Source of the DNA: Escherichia coli
Lineage (GTDB): Bacteria; Pseudomonadota; Gammaproteobacteria; Enterobacterales; Enterobacteriaceae
Direction: 5' to 3' (one strand)
Length of the DNA: 64,000 bases
Assembly: GCF_046105845.1 (NCBI RefSeq)
Contig: NZ_CP151004.1
Below, piece after piece: positions 22,560 through 25,500 of this stretch. Below the pieces are notes generated by a model. The model made no database searches. It worked only from the letters and a program-made list of their open reading frames with translations, and was not told where the DNA came from. Each line of letters begins with the position of its first letter. Positions within the stretch are counted from its first letter, which is position 1. The position numbers were made by a program, and so were the translations under genes.

Positions 22560-25500
22560 TTACGCCTTCTCGATGTTTACTAAGAACGCTTTATATTCCG
22601 GCGTTTGCGAGTTTGCATCACCGACATTAGGCGTCAGAGTGTTAGCGATGTAACCTTTACGCGCGACACCCTCAAAGCCCCAGTGGATTGGAATACCCAC
22701 CGTTTCAACCTGCTGACCGTTTACATTCAGCGGCTTCAGACGGCGCGTTACCACAGCCACCGCGCGGATAAAACCACGCTTGCTGGAGACAGTGACACGA
22801 TCGCCATTATTAATGCCTTTCGCCGCCGCCAGCGTTTCGCTGATTTCCACAAACTGTTCCGGCTGAGCAATTGCGTTGAGCAACGCGTGCTTGGTCCAGG
22901 TGTGGAAGTGCTCGGTCAGACGATAGGTCGTACCCACATACGGGAACTGCTCTTTTTTACCCATCCGCAGCGCGTCTTGTTCATACAGACGAACCACCGG
23001 GTTAGACACCACGTTCGGATGCAGCGGGTTAGTGCCCAGCGGCGTTTCAATCGGCTCGTAGTGTTCCGGGAACGGACCTTCCGCCATTTTGTTGATGGCA
23101 AACAGGCGTCCCATCCCTTCCGGCTGCATGATAAACGGTCCGGTTAGTGTACCTGGCGCGGCATTGCCGAAGTCCGGAATATCGTTACCCGTCCACTTGC
23201 TGCCGTTCCACTGGATCAGCATCCGTTTCGGATCCCACGGTTTACCGTTGATATCCGCCGAAGCACGGTTGTACAGCACGCGACGGTTGAGCGGCCACGC
23301 CCAGGCCCATCCCAGCGTATTCCCCAGACCGGACGGGTCGGAGTTATCGCGGTTAGCCATCTGGTTGCCCTGCTCTGTCCAGCTACCAGTGTAGATCCAG
23401 CAAGAAGATGCGGTTGTACCGTCATCACGCAGATGCGCAAAGCTACTCAGCAACTGACCTTTCTTCGCAATCAGCACGCCATTAGCATCATAGAGATCTT
23501 CCAGCGCATAGCCGTTGTTCTCTTTAGCTACTTCGTCAGATTGCGGTTCGTGCGGCTGCTTGTAGTTCCAGCTCATCTTCATCAGCGGTTCTACGCCTTT
23601 GCCACCTTCGGCCTGGTACAACTCGCGCAGATGATGGTAGATACCCGCCAGAATTTCGCCGTCGTTACGCGCTTCGCCCGGCGCGTCCTGACCTTTCCAG
23701 TGCCACTGCAACCAGCGACCGGAGTTAGCGATAGAACCATCTTCTTCAGCAAAGCAGGTCGAAGGCAGACGGAATACTTCAGTCTGAATAGACGCCGGAT
23801 CGACATCGTTCGACTCGCCGTGGTTCTGCCAGAAGGTTGAGGTTTCAGTCACCAGCGGATCGATAACCACCATGTACTTCAGTTTGCTCAGGCAGCTCAC
23901 CACTTTGTTTTTGTCCGGGAAGGACGCAACCGGGTTAAAGCCCTGGCAGAAATAACCGGTGACTTTGCCTTCGTCCATCATGTTGAAATACTTGATGACG
24001 TCGTAGGTCTGGTCCCACTTCGGCAGCCAGTCGTAGCCCCAGTTGTTTTCTTTCTGCGCGGCATCGCCATAGAAAGATTTCATCAGGCTAACGAAGAACT
24101 TCGGATAGTTGCTCCAGTAGTTCACCTGATCAGCCAGCGTCGCTTTCGGCGTATTCGCTTCCAGATACGACTGCAAATCAACCTGTTTTTCTGACGGCAG
24201 CGTCAGATAACCCGGCAGGCTGGTTGAGAGCAGACCTAAGTCGGTCAGCCCCTGAATGTTGGAGTGACCACGCAATGCGTTCACGCCGCCACCGGCCATA
24301 CCCATGTTACCGAGCAGTAACTGGATCATCGCCATAGTACGGATGTTCTGCGCACCCACGGTGTGCTGCGTCCAGCCCAGCGCGTAAAGGAAGGTGGTTG
24401 TGCGATCCGGTGCGCTGGTGGAGGCCAGCACTTCACACACTTTCAGGAAGTCGGCTTTTGGCGTACCACAGATGTTTTCTACTACGTCCGGCGTGTAGCG
24501 GGAAACGTGCTCTTTCAGCAAGTTCCACACACAGCGCGGATGAGTCAGTGTTTCATCGCGTTTCGCATAGCCGTTTTCATCGAACTGATAGTTCCAGGAC
24601 GATTTATCGTATTGACGTTTTTCAGCGTCGTAGCCGCTGAACAGACCGTCTTCGAAAGCAAAATCATCACGCACCAGCAGACTGGCGTTGGTGTAATGCT
24701 TAACGTATTCGGCGTTGATTTTGTTGTTTTCGATCAGGTAGCGCAAAACGCCAGACAGGAACGTAATGTCCGTACCGGAACGAATAGGTGCGTAAATATC
24801 CGCTACAGAAGCGGTACGCGTAAAACGGGGATCGACAACGATCAAGGTTGCATCGTTGTTGTTTTTCGCTTCCATCGCCCAGCGGAAACCGACGGGATGC
24901 GCTTCAGCAGCGTTACCACCCATCACCATTACGACGTTAGCGTTTTTGATATCCACCCAGTGGTTGGTCATCGCACCGCGACCAAATGTTGGAGCAAGAC
25001 TTGCTACCGTTGGTCCGTGTCAGACGCGCGCCTGGTTGTCTACCGCCAGCATCCCGAGGGAGCGGGCAAATTTTTGAGTCAGCATCCCGGTTTCGTTGCT
25101 GGCACCGGAGGCACACAGCATACCGGTAGAAAGCCAACGGTTTACCGTTACGCCCTGCTCGTTCTTTTCAATAAAGTTAGCGTCACGGTCAGCTTTCATC
25201 AGCTTGGCAATACGGGAGAATGCTTCATCCCAGCTAATGCGCTGCCATTTATCAGAACCTGGCGCACGATATTCCGGGTAGCGCAGACGGTTTTCGCTGT
25301 TGACGTAATCCAGCAAACCGGCCCCTTTCGGGCACAGCGCACCACGGCTTACCGGATGATCCGGGTCACCTTCAATGTGATAAATCGCTTCTCTGGCGTT
25401 TTTCGCGCCATCACCCAGGCTATACATCAATAGCCCGCAACCTACGGAACAGTATGTGCAGGTGTTACGGATCTCTTTCGCGCGTAATAATTTATAGTTT

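What the first reader, a model, noticed from the sequence alone, without database searches (positions are those of the whole stretch)
24975..25022. Selenocysteine recoding site in fdnG (in-frame UGA plus downstream SECIS-like hairpin)
The two track ORFs for the formate dehydrogenase alpha subunit are one gene read through a single TGA at 25020..25022 on the minus strand; the 45 nt immediately downstream contain self-complementary segments consistent with a bacterial SECIS. A naive ORF call would split this gene or annotate a pseudogene.
Basis: partly seen in the sequence, partly recalled or inferred. Interest (0 to 1): 0.35.

Follow-up and report, generated by a model that had tools for sequence, protein, structure and literature searches.

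The report
Selenocysteine UGA and SECIS in fdnG

Summary
Confirmed, and already known. On the minus strand a single TGA (25022..25020) joins a 195-aa ORF and an 803-aa ORF in frame into a 1015-aa protein. That protein matches E. coli Fdh-N alpha subunit (PDB 1kqf_A) end to end, with the non-standard residue at position 196. It also matches NCBIfam TIGR01553 at 1623 bits. RefSeq annotates the same locus as one intact fdnG CDS, followed by fdnH and fdnI.

The only Rfam hit above threshold in the whole 64-kb window is RF01989 SECIS_3 at 24967..25025 (-), 84.3 bits against a gathering score of 63. The hairpin carries the SelB determinants known from fdhF at the same distances from the UGA: bulged U17, and loop G23 and U24.

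Of 81 related loci, 80 have TGA and one Pseudomonas has TGC (Cys). That one scores only 32.8 bits on SECIS_3. Synonymous variation drops sharply right after the TGA (0.36 vs 1.15 bits, p=3e-9). The apical helix is paired in every sequence, with two compensatory pairs. The 59-nt element is identical in 5432 of 5433 E. coli records. selAB, selC and selD occur in about 5425 of 5426 E. coli genomes, but not in this window.

Caveat: folding energy alone is unremarkable (z -0.8 to -1.7). Interest is low.

The parts
22560..25607 (-). fdnG, the complete coding sequence of the formate dehydrogenase-N alpha subunit. It is 1015 aa with selenocysteine at codon 196. The N-terminal twin-arginine motif SRRQFF is visible in the translation.
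   Evidence: Translation. 1kqf_A matches 1-1015. TIGR01553 scores 1623 bits. RefSeq annotates a single CDS at identical coordinates in locus L086.
25020..25022 (-). In-frame UGA, codon 196, decoded as selenocysteine.
   Evidence: Read directly from the sequence. It aligns with the non-standard residue X196 of 1kqf_A. TGA is present in 80 of 81 related loci. Sec196 has been identified by mass spectrometry in E. coli FdnG (PMC3636253).
24967..25025 (-). Full conserved SECIS element as modelled by Rfam RF01989 (SECIS_3). It spans 3 nt before the UGA, the UGA, the hairpin and 10 nt after it.
   Evidence: cmscan scores 84.3 bits against a gathering score of 63, model positions 1-59 of 59. The 59-mer is 100% identical in 5432 of 5433 E. 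coli records. The span of suppressed synonymous variation, codon -1 to about +20, agrees with this extent.
24977..25019 (-). SECIS hairpin: a lower stem with internal bulges plus an apical minihelix. It starts directly after the UGA.
   Evidence: Rfam consensus structure, MFE folds and the RNAalifold consensus. The register of the lower stem is ambiguous.
24991..25008 (-). Apical SelB-binding minihelix GGUAGCAAGUCUUGCUCC, nt 15-32 counted from the U of UGA. It has bulged U17 at 25006 and loop GUC at 25000..24998, so G23 is at 25000 and U24 at 24999.
   Evidence: The positions are identical to those in fdhF. U17, G23 and U24 are invariant in all 80 TGA-bearing sequences (columns T20, G26, T27). 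The helix is 100% paired in 23 distinct sequences, with compensatory A-U to G-C changes in 9 sequences and A-U to C-G in 2. The determinants are described in PMC8659212 and PMC4605307.
21663..22547 (-). fdnH, the Fe-S beta subunit of the same operon.
   Evidence: TIGR01582 scores 482 bits. RefSeq annotation agrees.
21017..21670 (-). fdnI, the cytochrome b gamma subunit of the same operon.
   Evidence: NF007558 scores 486 bits. RefSeq annotation agrees.

Best explanation
This is the canonical selenocysteine recoding site of Escherichia coli fdnG, the gene for the catalytic alpha subunit of nitrate-inducible formate dehydrogenase-N.

The proposed mechanism runs as follows. When the ribosome reaches UGA196, the mRNA immediately 3' of it forms the SECIS hairpin. 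The apical minihelix of that hairpin, with bulged U17 and loop G23/U24, is bound by the C-terminal winged-helix domains of the elongation factor SelB. SelB carries GTP and selenocysteyl-tRNA(Sec) (selC), which is made from Ser-tRNA(Sec) by SelA using selenophosphate from SelD. Tethering this complex next to the A site lets tRNA(Sec), with anticodon UCA, outcompete release factor 2. Sec is inserted and translation continues to give the 1015-aa protein, in which Sec196 ligates the molybdenum of the bis-MGD cofactor.

Shown here: the reading frame, the identity of the protein, the SECIS family match, conservation of the TGA, RNA-level selection on synonymous sites, and compensatory pairing in the apical helix.

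Taken from the literature on the same E. coli gene and on fdhF, not tested here: SelB binding, dependence on selC, and Sec196 as the metal ligand.
For: - One internal TGA in an otherwise open 1015-codon frame.
- 1kqf_A matches end to end, with X at 196. TIGR01553 equivalog scores 1623 bits, and fdnH and fdnI lie downstream.
- RefSeq annotates one intact fdnG CDS.
- Rfam SECIS_3 scores 84.3 bits against 63, and is the only hit above gathering score in the 64 kb.
- The E. coli paralogue fdoG (L053) scores the same 84.3 bits. fdhF scores 87.1 bits on the sister family SECIS_2.
- U17, G23 and U24 lie at identical distances from the UGA in fdhF and fdnG and are invariant in 80 relatives.
- TGA occurs in 80 of 81 loci. 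The single Cys (TGC) homologue scores only 32.8 bits, so it has lost the SECIS.
- Synonymous codon entropy is 0.36 bits for codons +1..+15 against 1.15 bits elsewhere (Mann-Whitney p=3e-9). The lowest 15-codon window among the 241 codons starts at the UGA. Matched by amino acid, the deficit is 1.01 bits.
- The apical helix is 100% paired, with two pairs changed on both sides, all at synonymous positions.
- The element is identical in 5432 of 5433 E. coli records.
- The sel machinery is present in about 5425 of 5426 E. coli genomes.
- Literature: Sec196 was seen by MS and Cys never at that position; translation terminates at codon 196 in a selC mutant (PMC3636253, which cites Berg et al. 1991 and Jormakka et al. 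2002). SECIS determinants are described in PMC8659212 and PMC4605307.
Against: Nothing argues substantively against it. There are four caveats.

- The hairpin's predicted stability is not exceptional compared with shuffled sequence (z -0.8 to -1.7).
- The lower stem has two competing registers, each fitting only part of the family. Rfam's register leaves A-C and A-G mismatches in the enterobacterial sequence.
- Most of the 80 relatives are identical in this stretch. Only 23 sequences are distinct, so covariation rests on few independent events.
- The sel genes could not be checked in the window's own genome.
Confidence: 0.98

Rival explanations
1. fdnG is a pseudogene here: the TGA is a nonsense mutation and only a 195-aa fragment is made.
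For: A mechanical ORF call splits the gene. That is the only support.
Against: The same TGA is present in 80 of 81 homologues across three proteobacterial classes. The 59-nt context is identical in 5432 of 5433 E. coli records. The downstream 819 codons are fully open and about 99.5% identical to the crystallised protein. RefSeq does not flag the gene as a pseudogene. A SECIS passing Rfam's threshold follows the codon.
Confidence: 0.005
2. These are two separate genes: a 195-aa N-terminal protein, and an 803-aa protein initiated independently at ATG 24971.
For: An ATG at 24971 opens the second ORF.
Against: That ATG is the conserved internal Met212 of FdnG (the AMTNHW motif). The 16 codons between the TGA and that ATG encode HGPTVASLAPTFGRGA. 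This peptide is conserved in all relatives and present in the crystal structure chain. The family HMM aligns continuously across the junction.
Confidence: 0.005
3. The UGA is read through without SelB and SECIS, for example by near-cognate tRNA-Trp or tRNA-Cys. On this view the downstream nucleotide conservation reflects only protein constraint or codon bias.
For: UGA followed by C is a relatively leaky stop context in E. coli (general knowledge, not tested here). The peptide after the UGA is itself highly conserved.
Against: Synonymous positions are specifically suppressed, by 1.01 bits relative to the same amino acids elsewhere in the gene. Changes on the two sides of the apical helix are coupled and compensatory. 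The Cys homologue, which needs no recoding, has not kept the RNA motif (32.8 bits). Published MS never found Cys at 196, and selC mutants terminate there (PMC3636253).
Confidence: 0.01

Closest known systems
E. coli K-12 fdnG Sec196 codon and SECIS (Berg et al. 1991, J Biol Chem 266:22380, cited in PMC3636253; structure 1KQF, Jormakka et al. 2002)
   Same: It is the same gene, the same codon and the same 59-nt element. The protein matches 1kqf_A over 1-1015 with only a handful of substitutions. The SECIS 59-mer is 100% identical across E. coli.
   Different: Nothing functional differs. The window comes from a different E. coli lineage, about 98.6% identical to the closest complete genome over the locus.
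E. coli fdoG SECIS (Fdh-O paralogue; Rfam RF01989 SECIS_3)
   Same: The 59-nt SECIS is identical and the Rfam score is the same, 84.3 bits (L053). Sec is also at codon 196 (PMC3636253).
   Different: The paralogous gene is about 82% identical at protein level in the region compared. It lies at a different chromosomal locus and in a different operon (fdoGHI).
E. coli fdhF SECIS (Rfam RF01988 SECIS_2), the experimentally dissected prototype of bacterial SECIS
   Same: A hairpin starts directly after the UGA. There is 11-nt spacing to an apical minihelix of about 17 nt. Bulged U17 and loop G23/U24 occupy identical positions, and the first 25 nt are nearly identical.
   Different: The loop is GGUC in fdhF, against a GUC triloop (or AGUCU) closed by an extra A-U pair in fdnG. 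The 3' half of the lower stem differs. Each sequence scores above threshold only on its own Rfam family: fdnG gets 28.8 bits on SECIS_2 and fdhF gets 35.8 bits on SECIS_3.

Membership tests
Bacterial SECIS (Rfam RF01989 SECIS_3) | Covariance-model score at or above the curated gathering score (63 bits). | tested here: met
   84.3 bits, E=1.4e-18 over the whole window, model positions 1-59 of 59.
Bacterial SECIS (general, as defined on fdhF) | The hairpin lies inside the coding region, immediately 3' of an in-frame UGA. | tested here: met
   The hairpin spans 25019..24977 and starts at the base after the UGA at 25022..25020. PMC4605307 states that the bacterial SECIS lies just downstream of the UGA within the coding region.
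Bacterial SECIS (general, as defined on fdhF) | The apical stem-loop begins 11 nt after the UGA, with bulged U17 and G23/U24 in the loop. These are the SelB contact bases. | tested here: met
   nt 4-14 form the spacer. U17 is unpaired in both the MFE fold and the Rfam structure. G23 and U24 lie in the apical loop. All positions are the same as in K-12 fdhF and invariant in 80 homologues. The criteria are taken from PMC8659212. PMC4605307 places the loop G about 20 nt downstream of the UGA.
Bacterial SECIS (general) | The structure is maintained by selection: compensatory changes and constrained synonymous sites. | tested here: met
   The apical helix is 100% paired, and 2 of its 7 pairs change on both sides. 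Synonymous entropy is 0.36 vs 1.15 bits, p=3e-9. The lower stem is only 78-91% paired, depending on register.
Bacterial SECIS (general) | Binds SelB and directs selC-dependent Sec insertion. | not testable with these tools
   This is biochemical. It has been published for the identical E. coli sequence: Sec196 was seen by MS and translation terminates there in a selC mutant (PMC3636253).
Formate dehydrogenase-N alpha subunit (FdnG; NCBIfam TIGR01553 equivalog) | Full-length HMM match above the curated cut-off (814 bits). | tested here: met
   1623.4 bits, residues 2-1014 on profile positions 1-1009 of 1009.
Formate dehydrogenase-N alpha subunit (FdnG) | Operon context fdnG-fdnH-fdnI. | tested here: met
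   fdnH matches TIGR01582 at 482 bits and fdnI matches NF007558 at 486 bits, directly downstream on the same strand. RefSeq annotation agrees.
Formate dehydrogenase-N alpha subunit (FdnG) | Sec (or Cys) followed by His at the Mo active site, aligned with Sec196-His197 of 1KQF. | tested here: met
   The alignment to 1kqf_A places the TGA opposite X196, followed by HGPTVASL. The same ARV-U-HGP motif occurs in fdhF.
Sec-decoding trait of the host | selA, selB, selC and selD are present in the same genome. | not testable with these tools
   They are not in the window: ARAGORN finds no tRNA, and the locus matches the region from pqqL to beyond ydcR. At species level, selAB is in 5425, selD in 5425 and selC in 5424 of 5426 complete E. 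coli genomes.

The most novel reading that the evidence does not exclude
Selection on synonymous sites extends beyond the canonical 40-nt SECIS hairpin. Codon -1 (Val, GUC; 0.28 vs 1.60 bits) and codons +16 to +20 (about 0.6 bit below amino-acid-matched background) are also constrained. This could mark an extra functional part of the fdnG/fdoG recoding signal that has not been dissected experimentally. Candidates are a closing helix across the UGA, a SelB or ribosome contact, or a pause site. In addition, the lower stem appears to use different registers in enterobacteria and in beta/deltaproteobacteria. Rfam's SECIS_3 model already spans these flanks, so at most this would refine a known element.
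Probability: 0.1. Interest if true: 0.2.

Novelty: already known. Interest (0 to 1): 0.04.

Why it matters
It matters only for annotation quality. Gene callers that treat TGA as a stop will split fdnG into 195-aa and 803-aa fragments, or call it a pseudogene. The correct annotation is one 1015-aa selenoprotein with a translation exception at codon 196. The biology has been established since 1991 for this exact gene: SelB and SECIS-directed Sec insertion into the Mo active site of respiratory formate dehydrogenase. The site is represented in Rfam, PDB, NCBIfam and RefSeq. It opens no new question.

Tried and rejected
- Thermodynamic significance of the hairpin. Folding 45-, 46-, 59- and 121-nt contexts always recovers the hairpin, but the z-scores (-0.8 to -1.7; +0.9 for the 121-mer) are not significant. 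Energy alone cannot validate the element.
- Looking for selC or other sel genes inside the window. There is no tRNA, and the gene content is the pqqL-gad-dos-ddp-osmC-maeA-adhP-fdn-nar...ydc region. I fell back on species-level prevalence.
- An extended helix pairing the GUC before the UGA with downstream GAU or GAC, as suggested by the 59-nt MFE. The variable columns 1, 3 and 54 in the 80-sequence alignment do not covary, so this is not supported (by inspection).
- Choosing one lower-stem register. Neither Rfam's register (78% of cells paired) nor the MFE register (91%) fits all sequences. RNAalifold returns a hybrid. This is left unresolved.
- An RNA thermometer in the fdnG leader, like the one Rfam lists for fdoG. 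Nothing credible was found in 25400..26000.
- Passing 'U' for selenocysteine in protein queries. The tools rejected it, so X was used instead.
- A larger set of Cys-type homologues as a negative control for the synonymous-site test. This would have needed the expensive metagenome scan. I judged that unjustified for a known element, so only one Cys homologue (L070) is available.

Full report
**Observation.** On the minus strand the sequence reads ...GCG CGC GUC UGA CAC GGA CCA ACG GUA GCA AGU CUU GCU CCA ACA UUU GGU CGC GGU GCG AUG ACC..., with the UGA at 25022..25020. The mechanical ORF list shows a 195-aa ORF (25607..25020, ATG start) that ends at this TGA. An 803-aa ORF (24971..22560) lies in the same frame 16 codons downstream. 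Translating 25607..22560 in one frame gives 1015 sense codons with a single internal stop at codon 196.

**Identity of the gene.** I wrote the stop as X and compared the joined protein with known families.
- It matches PDB chain 1kqf_A (formate dehydrogenase, nitrate-inducible, major subunit) over residues 1-1015 of 1015, at 2396 bits. The deposited chain has its non-standard residue at exactly position 196.
- It matches the NCBIfam equivalog TIGR01553 (formate dehydrogenase-N subunit alpha) from end to end, at 1623 bits against a cut-off of 814.
- The next two genes on the same strand are fdnH (TIGR01582, 482 bits) and fdnI (NF007558, 486 bits).
- A 1-kb query around the site finds fdnG in 5425 of 5426 complete E. 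coli genomes.
- In the closest genome (NZ_LR778147.1) RefSeq annotates one intact 3048-nt fdnG CDS at the same coordinates, not a pseudogene.
- The window is collinear with that genome at about 98.6% identity.

**The RNA element.** A scan of all 64 kb against Rfam at gathering thresholds returns one hit. It is RF01989 SECIS_3 at 24967..25025 (-), 84.3 bits against a gathering score of 63, E=1.4e-18, covering the full model.

The minimum-free-energy fold recovers the same hairpin in 45-, 46-, 59- and 121-nt contexts. It has a lower stem starting right after the UGA, an 11-nt distance to an apical minihelix GG-U-AGCAA-GUC-UUGCU-CC, a bulged U, and a GUC loop. The energy itself is not exceptional (z -0.8 to -1.7), so thermodynamics alone would not have validated the site.

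I fetched fdhF from E. coli K-12 and lined up both sequences from the U of UGA. Both have U17, G23 and U24 at the same positions, and the first 25 nt are nearly identical. According to PMC8659212 these are the bases that define the SelB-binding upper stem-loop: 17 nt, 11 nt from the UGA, with bulged U17 and G23/U24 in the loop. PMC4605307 describes a conserved loop G about 20 nt downstream of the UGA, which is where G23 lies.

Each sequence passes only its own Rfam family. fdhF passes SECIS_2 at 87.1 bits, and fdnG and fdoG pass SECIS_3 at 84.3 bits. The cross-scores are 29-36 bits.

**Comparative test.** I scanned one genome per species with residues 100-458 of the protein. This returned 80 loci from Enterobacterales, Pasteurellales, Betaproteobacteria and Deltaproteobacteria, including both the fdnG and fdoG paralogues of several species.
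- Counting the H1 E. coli locus as well, 80 of 81 loci carry TGA at the aligned codon.
- One locus, Pseudomonas sp. ANT_H4 (L070), carries TGC, i.e. Cys. It scores only 32.8 bits on SECIS_3, below threshold. This makes it a natural negative control: where no recoding is needed, the RNA motif is not kept.

Among the 80 TGA-bearing sequences (79 fetched loci plus the window), synonymous codon entropy averages 0.36 bits over codons +1..+15 and 1.15 bits over 158 other codons with conserved amino acids (Mann-Whitney p=3e-9). The lowest 15-codon window in the 241 codons examined starts at the UGA. After matching each codon to the background of the same amino acid, the deficit is 1.01 bits for +1..+15, 0.61 bits for +16..+21, and zero from +22 on. 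Codon -1 (Val) is also constrained, at 0.28 vs 1.60 bits. This extent, about -3 to +60 nt, coincides with the span of the Rfam model.

On the 59-column alignment (23 distinct sequences) the apical helix is paired in 100% of cells. Two of its seven pairs change on both sides: A-U to G-C in nine distinct sequences and A-U to C-G in two. All of these changes are at synonymous positions. Sliding the partners by 1 to 3 columns drops pairing from 88-95% to 21-50%. RNAalifold independently predicts the same apical helix. U17, G23 and U24 are invariant.

The lower stem is less clear. Rfam's register fits the beta/deltaproteobacterial sequences (GGCC/GGCC) but leaves A-C and A-G mismatches in enterobacteria. 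The MFE register fits the enterobacterial sequences.

Within E. coli the 59-mer is 100% identical in 5432 of 5433 records, at two places per genome, fdnG and fdoG.

**Machinery.** The window contains no tRNA gene and no sel gene. By gene content it covers the pqqL-gadBC-dosCP-ddp-osmC-maeA-adhP-fdnGHI-yddG-narUZYWV...ydc region. I took selB-selA, selD and selC from K-12 and searched all complete E. coli genomes. They are present in 5425, 5425 and 5424 of 5426 genomes. The host species therefore carries the full Sec-decoding trait almost universally. The window's own genome could not be checked.

**Mechanism.** The established model comes from the literature on this gene and on fdhF, and was not tested here. 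SelB-GTP-Sec-tRNA(Sec) binds the apical SECIS minihelix through its C-terminal winged-helix domains as the ribosome approaches. It delivers tRNA(Sec) to the UGA in the A site in competition with RF2, and Sec196 is incorporated. PMC3636253 reports three things for E. coli FdnG and FdoG: Sec was found at position 196 by mass spectrometry, Cys was never found there, and translation stops at codon 196 without Sec-tRNA(Sec). That paper cites Berg et al. 1991 for the original demonstration that this UGA encodes Sec, and Jormakka et al. 2002 for the 1KQF structure.

**Rivals.**
- A nonsense pseudogene is excluded by conservation of the TGA across three proteobacterial classes and by the intact, conserved downstream 819 codons.
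- Two independent genes are excluded because the 16 codons between the TGA and the next ATG encode the conserved HGPTVASLAPTFGRGA segment, which is present in the crystal structure, and because the family HMM runs continuously through the junction.
- SECIS-independent read-through is contradicted by RNA-level selection at synonymous sites, by the compensatory pairs, by loss of the motif in the Cys homologue, and by the published selC dependence.

**Novelty and verdict.** This is the textbook selenocysteine site of E. coli fdnG. It is represented in Rfam, PDB, NCBIfam and RefSeq, so it is already known. The only refinements are these:
- Folding energy alone is not diagnostic.
- The register of the lower stem is ambiguous.

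The most novel reading not excluded is that the constrained flanks (codon -1 and codons +16..+20) form an undissected extension of the recoding signal. I rate this at about 10% probability and modest interest. Overall interest is very low.

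Noticed in passing
window 24957-24976 and 25023-25025 (-): Suppression of synonymous variation extends beyond the SECIS hairpin. Codon -1 (Val GUC) has 0.28 bits against a 1.60-bit background. Codons +16..+20 are about 0.6 bit below amino-acid-matched background. Variation returns to background from codon +22. No covarying partner was found for these flanks.
   Followed up: partly
window 24977-24990 with 25009-25019 (-); loci L071-L079: The lower stem of the SECIS has two alternative registers. Enterobacterial sequences fit the MFE register, with a bulged G at alignment column 47 of alignment A1 (window 24979; nt 44 counted from the U of UGA). Beta- and deltaproteobacterial sequences fit Rfam's register (GGCC/GGCC). 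Neither register fits all sequences.
   Followed up: partly
L070:1789-1791 (Pseudomonas sp. ANT_H4): This is the only Cys (TGC) homologue among the 81 loci. Its downstream synonymous sites differ freely, and it scores 32.8 bits on SECIS_3, below the gathering score of 63. It is consistent with a Sec/Cys exchange accompanied by loss of the SECIS.
   Followed up: partly
L053:1031-1233 (E. coli fdoG upstream region); window 25400-26000: There is a sub-threshold Rfam hit to RF02778 FdoG1_thermometer upstream of fdoG in an E. coli locus (31.9 bits against a gathering score of 50). Nothing comparable was found in the fdnG leader in the window.
   Followed up: partly
window 28243-29508 and 29550-30827 (+): Two tandem ORFs of 421 and 425 aa contain leucine-rich repeats (Pfam LRR_4 and LRR_8) and appear intact here. 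In the closest RefSeq genome the corresponding features are a partial hypothetical protein and a frameshifted LRR pseudogene.
   Followed up: partly
window 26979-28079 (+): An intact 366-aa general porin gene (Pfam Porin_1, 448 bits) lies between yddG and the LRR genes. RefSeq labels it 'ompC' in the closest genome, although this is not the canonical ompC locus.
   Followed up: no
window about 40306 and 41947-42552: Compared with NZ_LR778147.1, the window lacks that genome's IS1397 (IS3-like) copy between yddE and nhoA. It also differs in the region that carries ISAs1 remnants in that genome. The alignment also stops at window 61017.
   Followed up: no
E. coli genome collection: Seven or eight of about 10,830 places matching the fdnG SECIS region lie on records typed as plasmids. 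selD has two such places and selC has one. These may be mis-typed replicons or large chromids.
   Followed up: no
window 20681-20965 (+): yddM is annotated as a HigA-family antitoxin (Pfam HTH_3). It sits between adhP and fdnI, and no toxin partner is annotated next to it in the closest RefSeq genome.
   Followed up: no
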